This document shows positions 34,536 through 48,551 of a stretch of 48,551 bases of DNA, piece by piece. Made by a program: the position numbers and the translations under genes. Under the pieces are notes generated by a model. It was given only the letters and a program-made list of their open reading frames with translations. It was not told where the DNA came from and searched no databases. Position 1 is the stretch's first letter; each line of letters begins with the position of its first letter. The DNA is from Rozella allomycis CSF55 (Eukaryota). Location: positions 1 to 48,551 of the forward strand of contig KE560862.1 in the NCBI GenBank assembly GCA_000442015.1, written 5' to 3'.

Positions 34536-36403
34536 ATGAAAATTAATACAGCAGAATCTTTTGACACTATAGACTTATCCGAAACAACGTATAAAATATT
34601 CTGCTTGAAATATAGACGAAAGACTTTGAATGCATTAAATTTCACAAGGATGACACCTGTTCAAGCTGTTACACTTCCAAATTTTCTATCAAACAAAGAT
34701 GTAGTAGTGCAATCAAAAACAGGATCTGGAAAAACTTTGAGTTTTGTTATACCAGTTATTGAAATATGTCAAGGATTGAAATCTTTCATGTTGAATGATG
34801 TTTTGGCAGTTATTATAAGCCCTACGAGAGAATTGGCAAAGCAGACATATGATGTAACTGTGAAATTTTCAGAAAATACAAATCTTGTTGTTCAATGCTT
34901 AATAGGTGGCGTGGATATTCAAGCTGATGTAAAGAAAGTCAGAGAATTTGGTGGGAACATTCTGGTCACCACACCAGGCCGTTTATGGGATATAATGGAG
35001 AAATGCAGTGATTTTCTATTATTCAAAAAACTCGAAGTTTTAGTTTTTGATGAAGCCGACAAGTAAAATGCATTACTTTGAGCAATTAGATTAATACAAA
35101 TGGGATTTCAATCAAAAGTGACAGAAATTATAGGGAAATTACCAAAACAAAGGAGGACTGGATTGTTTTCAGCAACTTTGAACGATTCCATTAAAGAGTT
35201 AATTAAAGTTGGCCTTAGAAATCCAGTTAAAATCAACGTAACTGATTCTCACAGTGATGGCCAAACACCTGAAACACTGCAACTGTTTTATTCAGTTGTG
35301 AATCCAAAAGAAAAACTTTTTCAATTGGCTAGCTTCTTGAAAGAAAAGAAGGGATCCAAAATCATGGTGTATTTTGGCACCTGTGCATGCGTTGAGTATT
35401 TTCATCATGTAAAATATTTCTATAAATTTAATTAGCTCTTGTCAGAATGGTCAGAAACCAAAGATTTAAATTTGATTTCATTGCACGGAAAAATGGTCAC
35501 TAAAAAGAGAGATGGTATTATTATAAATGTAACGTTAAAAAGGGTTATATAAAAAATTTGTTAAAGAAAAGGATGCTATTCTTTTGTGCACAGATGTTAC
35601 AGCTAGAGGTATTCACGTTGACGATATCGATTTTGTTATACAGTAAAACATTCTTTATAATTAAATTGATACGATCCACCTCAAGATCCAAGTATGTTTG
35701 TTCATAGAGTAGGCCGATCTGGTCGAATGGGAAATTTGGGAAACGCTTTGGTTTATCTCTACCCCAACGAAGTTCCTTACTTGGGTAATTTTTAACTCCT
35801 TTGTTGATAGATTTTTTGAAACTAAGAAAAATATCAATGGAAGATTTGCCATTGTTCAACCACACACTTTGCTCATCGGGTATTTATGATCTGTTGGCTA
35901 ATCATGACCGTTCATTGTATGAAAAGAGCATGAGAGCGTTTGTCAGTTATGTCAGATTTTATCAAGAGCATCATGCCTCGTTTATTTTCAGATTTAAAGA
36001 TATAGCGATTGGGGATATTGCCGATGGATTTTTTCTACTGAATTTGCCTAGAATGCCTGAATTGGACCAGAAGAATATTGATTGGAAGCCACCGCGTCCA
36101 GAGGTTAATGTAATAATCGCACACATTACTGAGTAATAGGTTCATGAAATCGCGTTTAAAGATCCTCAAAGAGAACAACAACGACTTGTGAGAGTTGAAA
36201 AACAAAAAGAAAAGAAGGCAGAAGAAAAGAAGCAAAGAAAGAAAAGCTTGAAGAATAAGAAGAAATCAGGAATCACGAAAGGACATAGATTTACAGTTAA
36301 CGATTGGGATGAATTGCAATCTGAAGCCAGACTATTAAAGAAATTGAAGAAAGGAAAAATATCAGAAAAAGAAGTCGATGACGCTCTAATGAATTTTGAA
36401 TAA
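34536..36403 (+). CDS. SPB4: DEAD-box helicase Spb4/DDX55; introns 34589-34615, 35063-35089, 35409-35435, 35515-35542, 35643-35668 (GT-TG), 35785-35810, 36110-36139
   Basis: [69 protein letters not shown]. Confidence 0.93.
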
Positions 36404-36427
36404 AGTAAATTTCTTTTACACATTGCT

Positions 36428-38204
36428 TTATTTTTTATGGTGAAAATGGACTTCGTGAAAATTTGGTTCTTCGTATTCGCCATCTCTAAACTTTTTACTT
36501 ATCAAGGATGTCATACTAAACATGAATTGTAAAGCAATTTACTTTTGAAATTCTTGTTGCATTAATTTGTGCNGAATTCTTTGTTGCATTAATTTGTGTT
36601 CTTTATGAATGCCTAATGAATCTAAAACAAATCTTCCTATTTCAGTATTTTCTCTCGAACCACGCAATGCTTCACTATTTCGTCCGTAAGCATACAAGTT
36701 AACATCTACTCCTGTGTGTCCATATGTTGTCCAGCCAATATTCGCTCTTTTTGAAATCTACATGATTTTTGTCGAATAAATGTACTGTTTCGCCAAGAAA
36801 ATATTCAACTTTGGAATAATCATTATTTAAAACATGTTTCTTCAAATAATCCAATTCGACTTTTTCCAACTCGAACGGCAAATAAGCTTTGATAACTATT
36901 TTCAAGTATATTTCAATGCTGTCAGAGTTCATATTGTCAGATATATTCTCCTTTATTTCTTTTGAGATTCTACTAGTGGATTTATTAATATCAAGTAAAA
37001 TTTGTGGATTCCATTTATATTCAGGATATTCCTCTGTGTATTGCGCCCCTACTGTCAATCCCCCGGTTTCATGGTCCGACACTGATATCATTACAGCACC
37101 AGGATTTTTATCGACAAAGTCCTTGACTAACTCTACGGTTTGCTGATACATAAGAATTTCTCTTGCATGGGTTGCAGGGTCGTTGCTGTGAGCCGCCATG
37201 TCTAAATTTTCATTCTTGGTAACTTTGCCTTACCAATTCTCGAGCCTTCAATCATCAAAAAGAATCCTTTGTCAGATGCCTCCATTAAATTCTTTAATGC
37301 AAATGATGCCATTTCCATCAAAGAAGGCTGAGAATTGTCTCTATCAATTTCGTAGTCCATATGATCAAGTGAAAATAGTCCGATAAAAGGATATCCAAAG
37401 TTAACACACTTTTTCAATACTTACTGGTGAATGCTTTCTATAGAGCTCAATTCTGCCCTGCTAAAGGCCAAGGTAGCTGAAGATCTCTTTACTAGTAAAT
37501 TAATGTTATCTCGTCTGCAGGAATCTTTTCCAGATACAAACATGCATCGACCACCACCCATTAATAGATCAACGGTTTGGTTCAATTTAGAAAATCCCAT
37601 TTGGAATAATGCTATTTCACTCTCCATATCTCTATGTTCTACATGTGCACTAAAGGATGCCGGTGTTGCATGAGTCACTCTCGAGGTCGAAACTAGTCCA
37701 GTTGCGTATCCTGCCTTCTTTGCGGCTTCCAAAACCGTTATACAAGGTTTTTTGTTTTGATCCACTGAATGAATACAGTTTTCAAATTCGTACCTCCAAT
37801 GGCTCCATTGTATGTTTTTATCGCACAACTAAAGGCAGTAGCTCCGGCAGCACTATCTGTGATCAATGAGCTTGATGATTTAGTCCTGGAAGATCCAACA
37901 AGCATCGTGTCTAATGGCAATAGTAACTCTGCATCTTTATGTAATGCTTGATTAAATGACCTAGCAAAGGTTTGAGATGCTGGACCATATCCATCTGAAA
38001 TCATTAATATCACATACTTTCTATCTTTTACTATCTTTTCATAGAGTAATTACCTGTTTTTGTCTTGCAATGTATAATTGCGAACAAAAAAGCCATGAGA
38101 AATATGGAACACAAAACTACTCTCCATTTGAAATTATTAGACATTGACAAGGCCTTTTGATTGTGACTTTTACTTATCAGTGGTGTTTTTTCTCTTGTTG
38201 ACAT
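36428..38204 (-). CDS. PHO8: Vacuolar-type alkaline phosphatase (type II membrane); introns 38025-38053, 37765-37793, 37395-37424 (GT-GG), 37202-37233, 36758-36785, 36516-36542; N join at 36573
   Basis: ISDGYGP, TDSAAGAT, THATPASF, FFLMIEGSRIDMAAH, SDHETGG, GHTGVDV. Confidence 0.92.
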
Positions 38205-40333: not shown

Positions 40334-42140
40334 TTATTGATAATTTAACAGAAACCGTGTTTCGGAAGGACAACCAATAACTTTGACAATTGAATCCACA
40401 GTTTTTCCATTCTTTATTTCATCCCAAATCATTTTTGGGATTCTCTCAGAAATTCGATGACATCCAAAAACAGAGACTTTGGTTACATTTGAACTTGGAT
40501 TTAAAGTAAAATTTCTTTCAAAGGACAATAATGCATTCATCACATCATCGTCCACGTTGGAACACCAAGACAAATCTATAAGTTCAAGTTTACATACAGA
40601 AGAACAGATGTCCATTAGCATTTCTTTAGAGAGTAATCTCACATAATTTAGATTTAGATTCTCAATCTTTTTGATAAGAGTGGGAACTAATGGCTTCAAT
40701 GCCAGATCAGTCAGTTCAAGATTTCCAGCTAATGAAAGATGAGTCAAGTTTTTGGTCTTTTCAAGCATTTTGTTAACACATTCATCATTTATTTTTGGAA
40801 GGTTGGATAAATCAAGAAACTTTAACCTTTTCACATCAATAAAATCCAAAGAACTACTGGAAATATTAGTGCATTTGTTTAAACTCAGTTCTTCTAGTGA
40901 AATGTTCTCGAATATTGCAAGTAAGCAATCATCTGTGAGAGCAGGGCAATTCTCCAATTTCAAACTTCTTAGTTGNACATTTGTTTAAACTTAGTTCTTC
41001 TAGCGAAATGTTCTCTAATATTGCAAGTAAACAATCATCTGTGAGAGCAGGGCAATTCTCCAATTTCAAACTTCTTAGTTGTCTAAAATGTTTTATATGA
41101 AGAAGTCCATTAACAGTGAACCTATTATTTGAACAAAAGTGTAGCGCTTCTATATTCGGGCAATGCTGAGCCAAATCAGATATACCTTGATCTGTAAATT
41201 TAACCGACTCTACAAACGAAAGCCTCTTCAGTCTGGATCCAATATGATTCCCCAAAGAACACAAAGCACTGTTTGTCAACAAAAAGGCGCCAGTGATTGA
41301 AAGAGATTCAACAAAAGGAATGTTCGATACAAATTTGTCAAATGTTAAATCATCCAATCTACCACACTGCCTAAGATCTAGCGATTTTATAGGAAGACCT
41401 TGAAATTTAGACCATCCTTTTTCTGTAATATCTGTGCAGTCATAAATCGTTATATCAGGCTGGTTATGAATAAACAAGTCAATAAGATCATCATTCATTT
41501 TCCTGTTTCTACACACTAATTGGCACAACGAATCAATTAATGCTGGTTCTATATCGCCAAAGGCTTCAATATCTTCAATTAACGCATATAGTTTTTGTAG
41601 ACAAAGTACTTTTAAAGAAGGAACCTTGTTTAACAGAATATCATCCAGTAGAGAAGTTTCATGAGGTAATTTTTGAAGCTTCTTTGTAGCGCCTTTTCTG
41701 ATTGGTTTTTTATTCTTTGATAGTGCGTTTAAGGCGGATTTTTGGCATGATGCGCACAAAGAAGACCAACATCCAATCGGTAATAAAGTTGAGCAATTAG
41801 AGCAATGTTTTTGTTTCTTGAAATCATAATCCATGTCATCGTCATCATCTTTTTTAGGTTTCTTCTTTTTTGGTCGTTCTGATGCTGTAGCTTCCTGATT
41901 TACTTGTTCTTGAGCAATTTGATTATTGTTAACTATTGTTTCTTGTTCATTTGTCGTTTGTAATTCTTGGGTTGTCGAGGTCTCCGTTTGTAATGACGTC
42001 AAGTTAACGGTAGGCTGGATTTCAACCGTTTCATTTTCATTGGCATTTCTATTTCTCGCCATAGAAAGACGGGAGCTTATTCCTCGCTCTTCTAGAAAAG
42101 AACTAAGAGCGCTTCGTGGGCCTTTAACAGATCTCACCAT
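40334..42140 (-). CDS. RAD7: Rad7-like LRR nucleotide-excision-repair protein, split by an assembly overlap at the N at 40976
   Basis: N-terminal GPRSALSSFL, VPSLKVLC box, LRRs, C-terminal VSVFGC. Confidence 0.75.
40871..41081. repeat. 105-nt duplication across a single N (40871-40975 vs 40977-41081)
   Basis: 5 substitutions, all at third codon positions of the Rad7-like gene. Confidence 0.85.
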
Positions 42141-42690: not shown

Positions 42691-44857
<2,167 letters not shown>

Positions 44858-45349: not shown

Positions 45350-45662
45350 TGAGCCTGGGTCTAAAGTAATTTAAAGAAAACTTAATAAATAAAACTTTTA
45401 GAGCAGTGAAAAACTTTTTTATTTTATTCAAGGGTCGCATTTATACCCCGACCCTGGCTTCTCACTTCTTTTCCGAAATTTCCTTCACACTCTTATTTTT
45501 TAGGCTTTGCGGCTGTGTTATACCCATAACATCGATATTTTTGCTAGATCTCTTGACTACCTCGCTAAATAATAAGCCTGAAGTGAGAGCAGNGTGCCTA
45601 CCTCACTAAATAATAGGCAGGAAGTGAGAGCAACCGGATTGCTAACTCTTCCACTTCCAACA
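45350..45662 (-). repeat. Putative 3' LTR of the copia element (TG...CA), preceded by the polypurine tract at 45663-45672
   Basis: Minus strand GAGAGAGAG then TGTTGG directly after RNase H; contains TATAAAT and AATAAA; CA end at 45350 is inferred; N join at 45593. Confidence 0.55.
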
Positions 45663-45672
45663 CTCTCTCTCA

Positions 45673-48551
45673 AGCTGGCTGGTCTCTTTATGATTCTCAT
45701 TGAAGTTCTATGTCTCTAAAATGCTTCCCTTGGCAATCCGTTCGTTAATGCATCCGCTGTCATATCCTTAGTGCTCAAGTATTCTAAATAAATTCTTCCT
45801 TTTTCTATCTTATCTCTTATGAAATGATATCTATTTTCTATATGTTTAATTTTTTACATTTGATTCGTAAGTGTGAGCTAATCTTATCGCACTCTGGTTA
45901 TCCTCATTAATCCTCACAGCTAGAGGTTTCCATCGTCTTGGTATGTCCAATTCTTTGAGTAGTTTCATCATCCATAATCCTTCTTTGCTTGTATCCGCCA
46001 GTGCCACTTCTGCCGTGCTCAATGCGTTTGTCTTTTGTTTTCGTGTCTTTCAACTCACCAAATTTCCGTCAATAAATATTAAATATCCTGTTGAACTTTT
46101 TCTTGTATCTTTGTCTGTTGCCCAATCAGCATCACTGAACCCTTCCACTTGTATTCTTCCTTTTTTCACACTTGCTGCGCCATCTTCACACTTGTATGTG
46201 AGACAAAAATCCTTAGTTTCCTTTAAATATCTCATAATCCGCTTGACTAATTTCCAATGTTGTTCCCCAGGATTTTCCACGAATCTGCTTGCCATATTCA
46301 CAGCGCGGCTAATGTCCGGTCGTGTCATTGCTTGAATCCATTGAAGGTTCCCTATTGCCTCCCGATATGGTATATGTTTCATTCTTAACTTCTCATCTTC
46401 ACTTTGTGGGCTTTGCGATGTGCTGTAGTCGGCCCCACTTTCCATTGGTGTGGATATTCCTGCGCATTCTTCCATTCCAAATTTCTTCAAGGTATCTTCA
46501 ATAAATGTTTCTTGTGACAGTCTTATCTCTTTCTTTCCTTCATCTTGTTCAATGTTGATTCCTAAGCATCAATTCAATTTATCTTGTATTGAGAATTTAT
46601 GTATGCTTTCGTCTTACTCAGCATTTCTTCGCTGTTTGTTGCTAATATGATATCATCTACGTAAAGTGCCAATATCATCGTCCTATTTTTCTTTTCTTGG
46701 TGTATACGCAGTAGTATCTCTTGAATCCCGCCTTTTTCAAATCCTTGTCAATGCGCATGTTCCATTGTCGTCCGGCTTGTTTCAATCCATATAATGATTT
46801 TCTCAGCTTGCATACTTTCTCCGTATGGAGTATTTATATCCAATTTATAAAATCGTCTCAGATCCCTTTTCAGCGAAGTCTTCTGGTTGTTCCATGTAGA
46901 TCGTCTCACTAATCTTACCGTTGAGATACGCAGTTTCCACGTACAATTGGTGTAATGTATAATGTCTTGATGCTGCCAATGCAATGATCGCATTCACTGA
47001 TGTATGTTTTGCCACTGGTGCATATGTTTCAAAATAATCTCTCCCTTTCACCTGAGTGTGACCACGAAAGACCACACGACTCTTGTATTTCAACAATTTC
47101 CCATTCCCATCAAACTTCGTCACATTTACCCATCTGCATGTGTGCACTTTCTCACCTTCGGGTCTTTCAACTAACTCCCATGTTTCATGATCTTTCAAGG
47201 ACTTAATCTCTTTTTCCATGGCTTCATACCACTCTGCCGAATCATCAGTCAAAATCGCTTCTTTGTATGTGCTTGGATAGTTTTCCAAGGCCATTAATGC
47301 GGCCTCCTTTGGGTTTTCAAAGTAATTCTTTCTCGCGATGTTTCTTAGTCCACCATTCTCATAATTGCGCCAAGTTCCCATAATAACTTGACAATCTTCC
47401 TTACGTATTTCCCTCGCCTTGAATATATCTCTCCCTTTCGGTCTTGGGTTTGTGGCTTGGTGTGATCGCACGTCCTCGATAATCGTATTTTGCACTGGCA
47501 CTTGTCGTTGCACGTCATTTATAACCGTCTTTACGTCCTCTTTATTCAACTTTATTGTTTTCTCGTTTTGCTCGTTGGCCTTTCTCTCCCTTATTTTCGC
47601 TAAAGATTCCTTCAACCTCTCCAACTTCCTACTCGATTCTTCTTCAATTTCTTTTCGCATCATCTCCTTTAGTGTCTGTATCGAGCCTCCTTCTTTTCTT
47701 CCACTCATTCGTTCCACGATTCCATCAATCATTCTTTCGAATTCCACTTCTTCTGTCTCATCCTCATCTTCATCCTCATTCTCATCAATAAACCTAACAT
47801 ATGTTGTTGTTNCCCTCATCTTCATCATCATTCTCATTAATAAATCTAACATGTGTTGTTGTTTTTACTTTATTTGTCTTTCCGGACCATGGCCATAACC
47901 TACTAAGTAGTGTAATGCCGCCTTCCCGTCTAACTTGAATCTCTTGCTCTTGTCAATATGCACATAACAAGCGCTTCCAATCTCTCTCATATGACTCACA
48001 TCCGGTTTTGTACAGCTGTAGATTTCCTCTGGGGTTTTACCGCCCAAAACTTTAGTGGGTGTTCTATTCTGAATGTAACATGCAGTATTCGCCATCTCAC
48101 NCCGATAGTTGTCTGTTGCGCTGGCACTTGTCGTTGCACGTCATTTATAACTGTCTTTACGTCTTCTTTATTCACCTTTATTGTTTCCTCATTCTGCTCG
48201 TTGGCCTTTCTCTCCTCTATTTTTGCTAATGATTCCTTCAATCTTTCCAGCTTCCTACTCGATTCTTCTTCAATTTCTTTTTGCATCATCTCCTCTAGTG
48301 TCTCTATCGACCCTGCTTTCTCTCTTTCGCTCATTCGTTCCACAATTCCATCAATCATCCTTTCGAATTCCACTTCTTCTGCCTCGTCCTCATCTTCATC
48401 CTCAATCTTATCAATAAATCTAACATGTGTTGTTGTGTTCACTTTATGCGTCTTCCCGACGCGTACTCTGAACATTCTGTGGCCATGACCGTATCCTACT
48501 AAGTAATGAATTCTCCGCCTTCCCGTCTAACTTGGATCTCTTGCTCTTGTC
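45673..48551 (-). mobile_element. Degenerate Ty1/copia retrotransposon pol (integrase C-terminus, spacer, RT, RNase H), frameshifted and assembled as a mosaic of at least two copies
   Basis: TACYIQNRTP, KPDVSHMREIGS, YKSRVVFRG, LYGLKQAGRQW, LYVDDIIL, SDADWA, KHIENRYHFIR; related segments near 47480-47810 and 48102-48430. Confidence 0.92.

What the first reader, a model, noticed from the sequence alone, without database searches (positions are those of the whole stretch)
35643..35668. GT-TG intron in the essential helicase Spb4/DDX55
Seen: the conserved VIQ-YDPPQDP motif is interrupted by gtaaaacattctttataattaaattg (26 nt, with an in-frame TAA). Only an acceptor ending TG restores CA|A TAC GAT. 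The next AG (35685) gives a frameshift and a stop. The length falls in the genome's 26-29 nt window. Inference: the spliceosome accepts a non-AG acceptor when a G lies at the right distance.
Basis: partly seen in the sequence, partly recalled or inferred. Interest (0 to 1): 0.85.

Follow-up and report, generated by a model that had tools for sequence, protein, structure and literature searches.

The report
Tiny intron ending TG, not AG
A ribosome-assembly helicase gene of the parasitic fungus Rozella allomycis carries a 26-base intron that ends in TG instead of the near-universal AG; the DNA is correct, and only removing exactly these 26 bases gives a normal protein, but no RNA data were available to show the splice.

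Summary
The window is a whole contig of Rozella allomycis CSF55. The Spb4/DDX55 gene (34536-36403, +) has seven tiny introns. Six are GTA...AG of 26-30 nt. The seventh (35643-35668) has a good GTAAAA donor, intron-like length and composition, but ends TTG.

- **DNA is correct.** T at 35667 is present in all four DNA contig sets laid, which carry four sequence versions.
- **Gene is under selection.** 26 exonic variants are synonymous and 0 are not; 9 lie downstream of this intron.
- **Only the 26-nt removal fits the family.**
  - Pfam Helicase_C positions 89|90 are joined.
  - The 30-residue motif V to VI spacing is restored, as in 71 of 71 related loci.
- **Public annotation.** It uses the 65-nt option and so lacks 13 residues, including the invariant H-R.

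No RNA data could be laid, so use of the TG is inferred (about 0.7). GT-TG introns are a known rare class. This is a probable new member, notable as the only productive acceptor.

The parts
34536..36403 (+). Spb4/DDX55 DEAD-box helicase gene, ATG to TAA. It has eight exons if the 26-nt intron is removed, giving 558 aa.
   Evidence: Pfam DEAD, Helicase_C and CTE_SPB4 on exon pieces. Best solved match is yeast Spb4, 7nac_x. The spliced model scores 661.3 bits against an HMM of 92 homologs.
34589..34615 (+). Intron 0: 27 nt, GTATAA...ATAG. Its length is a multiple of three and it has no in-frame stop.
   Evidence: The annotated protein P0001 omits these 9 codons. My model with it removed reproduces P0001 exactly, apart from intron 4.
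35063..35089 (+). Intron 1: 27 nt, GTAAAA...TTAG. An internal AG at length 20 is passed over.
35409..35435 (+). Intron 2: 27 nt, GTAAAA...TTAG.
35515..35542 (+). Intron 3: 28 nt, GTATTA...AAAG.
35643..35668 (+). Intron 4, the finding: 26 nt, GTAAAAC...AAATTG. It has a GT donor and a TG at the 3' end, 15% G+C and no internal AG.
   Evidence: Sequence. Pfam profile positions 89|90 are joined across it. Its intron-model score beats 35 of 49 canonical introns. My gene finder picks it once non-AG ends are allowed at a cost of 4 bits, but not at 6 or 8 bits.
35667..35667 (+). The T at intron position -2, where canonical introns have A.
   Evidence: No difference at this place in 4 of 4 contig sets that span it.
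35669..35708 (+). Start of exon 5. 35669 is the last base of the Q codon. Thirteen codons follow, for [13 protein letters not shown], which includes the H-R of helicase motif VI. The public annotation treats 35669-35707 as intron.
   Evidence: Including the segment adds 57.6 bits. 89 of 92 homologs have the whole segment; H is present in 91 of 92 and R in 92 of 92. G+C is 38.5%, exon-like. No variants in four contig sets.
35684..35685 (+). First AG downstream. It would give a 43-nt intron, a frameshift and a stop after 6 codons.
35691..35692 (+). Second AG. It would give a 50-nt in-frame intron that deletes YDPPQDPS and changes Q to H.
   Evidence: 626.2 bits; acceptor context -3.34 bits, below the canonical minimum of -3.18.
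35706..35707 (+). Third AG. It would give the 65-nt in-frame intron used by the public annotation (P0001).
   Evidence: 603.7 bits.
35785..35810 (+). Intron 5: 26 nt, GTAATT...ATAG.
36110..36139 (+). Intron 6: 30 nt, GTAATA...ATAG. An internal AG at length 24 is passed over.

Best explanation
35643-35668 is a genuine spliceosomal intron of Rozella's ultra-short class whose 3' end is UG instead of AG. It is removed at exactly these borders, so that CA joins A to make CAA (Q), followed by Y-D-P-P. The product is a full-length Spb4/DDX55 helicase with an intact motif V to motif VI core.

**Shown**
- The sequence and its correctness.
- Purifying selection on the reading frame on both sides of the intron.
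- The 26-nt removal is the only one of the four candidates that reproduces the family's invariant architecture.

**Inferred**
- That the spliceosome ligates at the UG.

**Proposed mechanism (inferred)**
- These introns carry little information beyond GTA at the 5' end, (T/A)AG at the 3' end and a length of 26-30 nt.
- The exon-ligation site is therefore set largely by distance from the branch or the 5' splice site.
- The G at -1, which in yeast pairs with the 5' G, is kept. The U at -2 weakens pairing with the branch adenosine but does not abolish it.
- No AG lies within the permitted window.
For: 1. **T at 35667 is real.** It is present in 4 of 4 contig sets laid (X3, X5, X6, X7), each with one piece spanning the gene. 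With the window these give four sequence versions (X6 = X7).
2. **Selection.** Of the 37 variable places, 26 are exonic and all 26 are synonymous, 0 are nonsynonymous, and 11 are intronic. There are 347.7 synonymous and 1326.3 nonsynonymous sites. Nine of the synonymous changes lie downstream of intron 4, in the frame that needs a removal of 2 mod 3 nt.
3. **Pfam.** Helicase_C ends at profile position 89 on the Q and resumes at 90 on the Y.
4. **Homolog HMM (92 sequences).** 26 nt scores 661.3 bits, 50 nt 626.2, 65 nt 603.7, and 43 nt 452.5 because it is truncated.
5. **The 13-residue segment.** It is complete in 89 of 92 homologs; H is present in 91 of 92 and R in 92 of 92.
6. **Motif spacing.** In 71 of 71 metagenome loci where both motifs were found (of 80 fetched), motif V (CTDV..) to motif VI (HR.GR..R) is exactly 90 nt in one frame. 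Only the 26-nt model gives this spacing.
7. **The 26-mer looks like an intron.**
   - GTAAAA donor; A at position 3 in 47 of 49 canonical introns.
   - Its score without terminal dinucleotides is 5.24, against a canonical mean of 4.0 and sd 2.21.
   - It is reached by 0.49% of 22,009 background windows.
   - G+C is 15%.
   - Acceptor context is +3.33 bits, against -4.73, -3.34 and -1.89 for the three AGs.
8. **Length class.** 26-30 nt in 47 of 47, 41 of 46 and 37 of 59 predicted introns under three length priors. No hairpin shortens the 65-nt option (z 0.19).
9. **Segment 35669-35707.** It has exon-like G+C of 38.5%. It has no variant. At the intron rate of 5.8%, about 2.2 would be expected; that expectation is my arithmetic.
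10. **Precedent.** GT-TG junctions occur at about 0.02% in a long-read fungal annotation, 22 junctions in Ganoderma lingzhi (PMC11590231, Table 1 passage), and in 36 human genes (PMC2374985, abstract).
Against: - **No RNA.** No listed holder is an RNA run, so no junction was seen.
- **Human precedent.** TG acceptors were never the sole acceptor of an intron. AG>TG mutations activated neighbouring AGs rather than the TG (PMC2374985, abstract and section 12).
- **Yeast precedent.** The A at -2 pairs with the branch adenosine, and U at -2 gives a strong second-step defect (10.1101/212811, passages and the legend of Fig. S6). A UUG reporter was not rescued by a permissive Prp8 mutant (PMC12262433, passage).
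- **Alternatives exist.** Two in-frame GT-AG alternatives (50 and 65 nt) are present, and the deposited annotation uses one of them.
- **Selection does not discriminate.** The synonymous-only pattern cannot tell 26 from 50 or 65 nt.
- **My models are ab initio.** The intron census and position weights come from my own gene models, not from transcripts, and the weights were trained on the set they describe.
- **Contigs can hide minor alleles.** Contigs drop rare variants, so a minor A allele is not excluded.
- **Unlisted differences.** For X6 and X7, one search lists 21 places but reports 23 other letters. Two differences are unlisted. I infer they lie near the ends of the stretch.
Confidence: 0.7

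Rival explanations
1. The intron is canonical but longer. The spliceosome uses the same GT and an in-frame AG further on: 35707 (65 nt, as annotated) or 35692 (50 nt). The resulting helicase lacks 13 or 8 core residues.
For: Both removals keep the frame. The public model P0001 uses the 65-nt version. AG is the near-universal acceptor, and human AG>TG mutants switch to nearby AGs (PMC2374985, section 12). The synonymous-only variation fits any in-frame removal.
Against: - The 65-nt version deletes H (91 of 92) and R (92 of 92) of motif VI.
- The 50-nt version deletes D (89 of 92) and P-P, and breaks the 30-residue spacing seen in 71 of 71 loci.
- Scores fall by 35 and 58 bits.
- Both lengths lie outside the 26-30 nt class.
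- Both must skip the frameshifting AG at 35685.
- Their acceptor contexts score -3.34 and -1.89 bits, against a canonical mean of 1.33.
- The supposedly intronic 39 nt has exon-like G+C, perfect family motifs and no variants.
- No hairpin shortens the path.
Confidence: 0.12
2. A fairly recent AG>TG mutation has crippled the acceptor. Most transcripts are mis-spliced at 35685 or retain the intron and end at a stop. The gene is failing, or survives on a trickle of correct product.
For: U at -2 is poorly tolerated in yeast (10.1101/212811; PMC12262433). The first AG downstream gives a frameshift. No close relative is available to date the change: no relative, and at most 47% identity over the best segment.
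Against: - T is shared by all four sequence versions, which differ at 7.5% of synonymous sites in total.
- There are 26 synonymous and 0 nonsynonymous changes, 9 of them downstream. At the neutral site ratio of about 3.8 nonsynonymous to 1 synonymous site (347.7 and 1326.3 sites), nine synonymous out of nine is very unlikely.
- A trickle of correct product would still mean that the TG is used.
Confidence: 0.1
3. It is an artefact or a minor-allele effect. The functional genome copies carry A at 35667, and the T is an assembly or consensus choice.
For: Only contigs, not raw reads, could be laid, and contigs drop rare variants (text). The assembly is a draft with 9 single N.
Against: Four contig sets, with word depths 248.8, 24.8, 457.5 and 21.1, show T. 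They carry distinct flanking variants, among them 35650 A>T inside the intron in X5 and 35535 and 35714 on either side in X6 and X7.
Confidence: 0.04
4. The 26 nt stay in the mRNA and are skipped by the ribosome (translational bypass), or the gene makes two separate polypeptides.
For: A stop codon follows the last sense codon directly, as at known bypass sites (recalled: phage T4 gene 60).
Against: The element has every feature of this genome's introns apart from one base. There is no matching take-off and landing codon. No start codon opens exon 5.
Confidence: 0.01

Closest known systems
TG 3' splice sites of human U2-type introns (Szafranski et al. 2007, PMC2374985; GNAS and 35 other genes)
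   Same: GT donor, TG in place of AG, a pyrimidine at -3 (T here) and a purine at +1 (A here). AGs lie within the reported 28-nt limit: here they end 17 and 24 nt downstream.
   Different: In human the TG is always an alternative to a productive AG and never the sole acceptor. Here the nearby AGs give a frameshift or delete invariant residues, so the TG would be the only productive site. The introns here are 26-30 nt with no polypyrimidine tract and no clear branch motif: YTRAY is present in 14 of 49. Use of the TG is unproven here.
Rare GT-TG junctions in a long-read fungal annotation (Ganoderma lingzhi, PMC11590231, Table 1: 22 GT-TG against 89,855 GT-AG)
   Same: A fungus, the same dinucleotide pair and a similar expected rarity. 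At that rate a genome with some ten thousand introns would hold a few; this is my estimate.
   Different: Those junctions are supported by transcripts. Intron sizes there are ordinary for fungi (recalled). I saw nothing there on whether they are constitutive.
Ultra-short intron systems such as Paramecium (recalled: introns of 20-35 nt, GTA...TAG, Jaillon et al. 2008; not read here)
   Same: A tight length class, information concentrated at the two ends, and AT-rich introns that carry stops.
   Different: A different lineage and genetic code. I know of no report of non-AG acceptors there (recalled, not searched).
Yeast 3' splice-site recognition in the P complex (Wilkinson et al. 2017, 10.1101/212811)
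   Same: It gives the framework: G(-1) pairs with the 5' G(+1), and A(-2) pairs with the branch adenosine. The G(-1) is kept here.
   Different: U at -2 is strongly defective in yeast. If it works in Rozella, either docking is more tolerant or proofreading is weaker.
Public gene model for this locus (P0001, 'DEAD-domain-containing protein [Rozella allomycis CSF55]', 545 aa)
   Same: The same gene and six identical introns.
   Different: It uses a 65-nt GT-AG intron and so lacks [13 protein letters not shown]. This shows as a 13-residue gap against solved Spb4.

Membership tests
Spliceosomal (U2-type) intron of this genome's ultra-short class | 5' GT with the local GTA(A) consensus | tested here: met
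   GTAAAAC. Position 3 is A in 47 of 49 and position 4 is A in 33 of 49 predicted introns.
Spliceosomal (U2-type) intron of this genome's ultra-short class | Length inside the class range | tested here: met
   26 nt. The class is 26-30 nt in 47 of 47, 41 of 46 and 37 of 59 predicted introns.
Spliceosomal (U2-type) intron of this genome's ultra-short class | 3' terminal AG | tested here: not met
   It ends TTG. T at -2 is present in 4 of 4 contig sets. All 49 census introns end AG, but the census required that by construction.
Spliceosomal (U2-type) intron of this genome's ultra-short class | Removal restores the frame and a conserved protein | tested here: met
   Pfam positions 89|90 are joined. 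The model scores 661.3 bits. The 90-nt motif spacing matches 71 of 71 loci.
Spliceosomal (U2-type) intron of this genome's ultra-short class | Absence of the intron from mature RNA | not testable with these tools
   No RNA holder is listed. No protein in the collection carries the joined segment from this organism.
U12-type (minor) intron | Extended /[AG]TATCCTT donor and TCCTTAAC branch box (recalled consensus) | tested here: not met
   The donor is GTAAAACA, and no such box lies in the 26 nt.
TG-AG tandem acceptor (Szafranski 2007) | An AG acceptor within 28 nt of the TG | tested here: met
   AGs end at 35685 and 35692, 17 and 24 nt after 35668.
TG-AG tandem acceptor (Szafranski 2007) | The TG is used alongside a functional AG isoform | not testable with these tools
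   This needs transcripts. By sequence, the AG forms are a frameshift (43 nt) or a core deletion (50 nt).
Spb4/DDX55 subfamily of DEAD-box helicases | DEAD and Helicase_C domains | tested here: met
   DEAD scores 115 bits. Helicase_C is found on both sides of intron 4.
Spb4/DDX55 subfamily of DEAD-box helicases | SPB4-type C-terminal extension (PF13959) | tested here: met
   62.9 bits against a cut-off of 27.
Spb4/DDX55 subfamily of DEAD-box helicases | SPB4-type C-terminal tail (PF23681) | tested here: inconclusive
   19.6 bits, below the cut-off of 27.
Spb4/DDX55 subfamily of DEAD-box helicases | The closest solved relative is Spb4 | tested here: met
   7nac_x, SPB4, E 3.4e-77. It ranks ahead of HAS1/DDX18.

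The most novel reading that the evidence does not exclude
Rozella's spliceosome sets the 3' end of its 26-30-nt introns mainly with a molecular ruler rather than by reading AG. A UG at the right distance can therefore serve as the sole, constitutive acceptor in a core ribosome-biogenesis gene. The human survey never found such a case: there, TG acceptors are only alternative. If true, Rozella would be a natural system in which the A(-2) to branch-adenosine check of exon ligation is relaxed.
Probability: 0.35. Interest if true: 0.65.

Novelty: new member of a known kind. Interest (0 to 1): 0.45.

Why it matters
**Splicing.** If transcripts confirm it, this is a constitutive GT-TG intron in a gene whose yeast orthologue is essential (recalled). 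It would run against the human rule that TG acceptors need a productive AG partner. It would also make Rozella's ultra-short introns a test bed for how the exon-ligation site is chosen when a distance constraint dominates.

**Annotation.** The deposited protein for this gene lacks 13 core residues, including the invariant H-R of motif VI, because gene callers allow only AG. The same error may affect other genes of this and similar genomes, and so comparative datasets that use these proteomes.

**Limits.** This is one intron, of a rare but already known class, and there is no RNA evidence.

Tried and rejected
- **Whole genome.** None is held for this window, so no genome-wide count of GT-TG introns, no paralog search and no search for U2AF, Prp18, Slu7 or Prp22 was possible.
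- **RNA evidence.** No RNA holder is listed. The four runs laid were all DNA contigs and showed no joints.
- **Earlier notes of this scan.** None exist for this genome.
- **Transcript-derived protein carrying the joined segment.** None was found. P0001 covers only 71% of the 41-aa query. The other 13 hits are 61-73% identical relatives from other organisms or unnamed sources.
- **Relatives with DNA.** The exon-6 scan of metagenome contigs found no relative. The alignment scan gave 80 loci with at most 47% identity over the best segment. None had an intron between motifs V and VI in the 71 loci where both motifs were found. The ancestral state of the acceptor therefore could not be read.
- **Hairpin bringing a distal AG closer.** Rejected: -4.2 kcal/mol, z 0.19, and 108 of 200 shuffles fold at least as well.
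- **Branch-site motif.** No position-specific motif was seen. YTRAY is present in 14 of 49 introns at scattered distances.
- **Other non-canonical introns on the contig.** With non-AG or non-GT ends allowed at 4 bits, six were picked.
  - One is the finding.
  - 14752-14780 is false: the canonical intron 14781-14809 fits the protein.
  - 45830-45857 lies in a decayed retroelement.
  - 40986-41013 lies next to an N. I did not follow it or 46557-46582 up; the latter lies in the retroelement region.
  - 37409-37438 stays open; see noticed in passing.
  - At 6 or 8 bits the finding is no longer picked.
- **Translational bypass and split gene.** Considered and rejected; see rivals.
- **Literature.** Two searches (giving 18 and 8 papers) turned up no paper on Rozella splice-site usage or on this intron. 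I read passages of only three of them (PMC8476143, PMC6349667, PMC8042348).
Full report
**What the window is.**
- A protein search with exon 1 returned a 545-aa protein, P0001. A source names it 'DEAD-domain-containing protein [Rozella allomycis CSF55]'. Its longest contig is 48,551 nt, the length of the window.
- The window is therefore a whole contig of this early-diverging parasitic fungus.
- G+C is 29-40% along it. It carries 9 single N.

**The gene.**
- On the + strand, ATG 34536 to TAA 36401-36403 encodes an Spb4/DDX55-type DEAD-box helicase.
- Pfam finds DEAD, Helicase_C and the SPB4 C-terminal extension on the exon pieces. The C-terminal tail scores below its cut-off.
- The best solved relative is yeast Spb4, 7nac_x.
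- I read seven introns:

| Intron | Coordinates | Length (nt) |
|---|---|---|
| 0 | 34589-34615 | 27 |
| 1 | 35063-35089 | 27 |
| 2 | 35409-35435 | 27 |
| 3 | 35515-35542 | 28 |
| 4 | 35643-35668 | 26 |
| 5 | 35785-35810 | 26 |
| 6 | 36110-36139 | 30 |

- With a 65-nt version of intron 4 (35643-35707), the spliced translation is identical to P0001. The other six introns therefore agree with the public model.

**The observation.**
- 35643-35668 is GTAAAACATTCTTTATAATTAAATTG. It sits between ...D-F-V-I-Q and Y-D-P-P-Q-D-P.
- Pfam's Helicase_C profile stops at position 89 on the Q and resumes at position 90 on the Y.
- Unspliced, a TAA follows CAG directly.
- There is no AG in the 26 nt.
- The next AGs end at 35685, 35692, 35707, 35709 and 35712. 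The first three give these candidate introns, shown beside the 26-nt removal:

| Intron length | Effect on protein | HMM score (bits) | Acceptor context (bits) |
|---|---|---|---|
| 26 nt (TG) | full [13 protein letters not shown] kept | 661.3 | +3.33 |
| 43 nt | frameshift, stop after 6 codons | 452.5 (truncated) | -4.73 |
| 50 nt | in frame; deletes YDPPQDPS, Q to H | 626.2 | -3.34 |
| 65 nt | in frame; deletes [13 protein letters not shown] (the public model) | 603.7 | -1.89 |

- Canonical acceptor contexts have mean 1.33, sd 1.54 and minimum -3.18 bits.

**Is the T real?**
- No RNA run holds the gene.
- I laid four DNA contig sets. Each has one contig across 34500-36450, with 7, 18, 23 and 23 other letters.
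- 37 variable places and one 1-nt deletion are listed. None is at 35667. The only one inside the intron is 35650 A>T, in X5.
- X6 and X7 carry the same set. Together with the window there are four sequence versions.
- For X6 and X7 two of the 23 differences are not in the list. I infer that they lie near the ends of the stretch.
- These are contigs, so a rare A allele is not excluded.

**Is the gene alive?**
- Under my model, 26 of the 37 variants are exonic and all 26 are synonymous. 0 are nonsynonymous and 11 are intronic.
- Nine synonymous changes lie downstream of intron 4. The downstream exons are therefore translated in the frame that requires a removal of 2 mod 3 nt.
- Intron diversity is 11 in 191 nt, or 5.8%. 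Synonymous-site diversity is 7.5%.
- The 39 nt that the public model calls intron carry no variant. About 2.2 would be expected at the intron rate (my arithmetic). This is weak support for their being coding.

**Which removal gives a proper helicase?**
- An HMM of 92 homologs scores the four candidates as in the table above. These homologs are all hits of 500-720 aa, of the 119 other than P0001.
- The 13-residue segment is complete in 89 of 92 homologs. H is present in 91 of 92, R in 92 of 92, D in 89 of 92 and the second P in 88 of 92.
- Against solved Spb4, P0001 shows a 13-residue gap exactly there.
- In 71 of 71 metagenome loci where both motifs could be found (80 fetched; 9 lacked a pattern match), motif V to motif VI is 90 nt in one frame. 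Only the 26-nt model reproduces that spacing.
- The names 'motif V' and 'motif VI' are recalled.

**Does the 26-mer look like a local intron?**
- I wrote a small Viterbi gene finder for the contig, using codon log-odds and GT..AG introns.
- Predicted introns of 26-30 nt under three length priors:

| Length prior | Introns at 26-30 nt |
|---|---|
| Flat over 20-44 nt | 41 of 46 |
| Flat over 18-150 nt | 37 of 59 (the rest scattered, one or two per length) |

- The five exceptions under the 20-44 nt prior are in-frame alternatives of neighbouring predictions.
- A canonical 32-nt intron in a neighbouring gene was missed by the finder and seen by eye.
- One paper gives fungal intron medians of 29 to 197 nt. 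It does not say in the text I could read which species has 29 (PMC8042348, passage; its Table S7 was not seen).
- The census of 49 introns shows GTA at the 5' end: A at position 3 in 47 of 49. At -3 it shows T 27, A 19, C 2, G 1. There is no polypyrimidine tract and no branch motif.
- Sixteen internal AGs that would give 20-25 nt are passed over.
- Scored without its end dinucleotides, intron 4 gets 5.24 bits, against a mean of 4.0. That is higher than 35 of 49 canonical introns. Only 0.49% of 22,009 background windows reach it.
- G+C is 15% for the 26-mer, 25% on average for the introns and 38.5% for the following 39 nt.
- Restricted to AG, the gene finder cuts the gene in two at the TAA. With non-AG ends allowed at 4 bits it picks 35643-35668; at 6 or 8 bits it does not.
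- These models are ab initio and partly self-trained. They describe the class well but do not prove any single junction.

**Mechanism.**
- The best reading is a normal ultra-short intron with U in place of A at -2, ligated at the UG.
- In the yeast P complex the last G pairs with the first G of the intron, and A(-2) pairs with the branch adenosine. U at -2 is strongly defective there (10.1101/212811, passages and the legend of Fig. S6).
- A UUG reporter splices poorly and is not rescued by a permissive Prp8 mutant (PMC12262433, passage).
- In human, 36 TG acceptors are known. All are alternative, all lie within 28 nt of an AG, and AG>TG mutants use neighbouring AGs (PMC2374985, abstract and sections 12 and 13).
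- Here AGs end 17 and 24 nt downstream, so a human-style dependence on a nearby AG for the first step is possible.
- Those AGs lie outside the 26-30-nt class, have poor contexts, and give a broken or shortened protein.
- I therefore infer that distance dominates site choice and that the G at -1 is sufficient. That is inference, not observation.
- No hairpin shortens the path to a distal AG.

**How new?**
- GT-TG is a known rare class: 22 junctions against 89,855 GT-AG in a long-read annotation of Ganoderma lingzhi (PMC11590231, Table 1 passage), plus the human cases.
- At such rates a few are expected in a genome with about 2.5 introns per kb of coding sequence (PMC8476143, passage).
- The unusual points are that the TG would be the only productive acceptor, in a core gene, in a 26-nt intron.
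- I found no paper on Rozella splice sites in two searches.

**Verdict.**
- The public protein model is very probably wrong at this point.
- Interest is moderate.

Noticed in passing
window 36539-38004, - strand; TAA at 37421-37423: An alkaline phosphatase gene (Pfam Alk_phosphatase on three pieces) has one in-frame TAA between well-matching parts. No GT donor lies within about 45 nt upstream. The only GT..AG there is 16 nt and shifts the frame. A 30-nt GA..AG removal (37409-37438) would keep the frame. It may be a second non-canonical intron, a real truncation or an error. The stop falls in a variable part of the profile (positions 170-215), so homology cannot decide.
   Followed up: partly
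window 37202-37233, - strand: A canonical 32-nt intron (GTAAGG...TTTAG) joins ...EGSRI to DMAAHSND of the alkaline phosphatase. It is longer than the 26-30 nt my gene finder returned, so the true class is a little wider than my census shows.
   Followed up: partly
window 34536-36403 (public model P0001): The deposited protein for this gene lacks 13 residues, including the invariant H-R. The annotation used a 65-nt GT-AG intron.
   Followed up: yes
window about 45830-48530, - strand: A decayed Ty1/copia-type retroelement. RVT_2 matches two separate ORFs, and there is a weak (sub-threshold) retroviral SH3-like match. There are frame breaks and a missing stretch near 45830-45857. Four of the contig's nine N lie within it and a fifth just outside, at 45593.
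   Followed up: partly
window 42873-44857, + strand: A gene with a Myb_Cef domain ('pre-mRNA splicing factor component') and two predicted 28-nt introns. By name it is a Cef1/CDC5-type splicing factor. It was not examined further.
   Followed up: no
window 34500-36450: There is a high density of variants among the DNA runs: 37 places in 1,951 nt and at least four sequence versions. Two runs from different samples (X6, X7) carry the same set. All exonic changes are synonymous. This suggests several haplotypes or strains in the sequenced material.
   Followed up: partly
window 34589-34615: Intron 0 of the helicase gene is 27 nt (a multiple of three) and has no in-frame stop. Retention would insert 9 residues rather than end translation.
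   Followed up: no
window 14752-14809, + strand: The predicted intron 14781-14809 has the weakest intron score of the census (-12.8). Even so, it is the one that joins ...EDKSK to [10 protein letters not shown] in what looks, from recalled motifs, like a UDP-N-acetylglucosamine pyrophosphorylase.
   Followed up: partly
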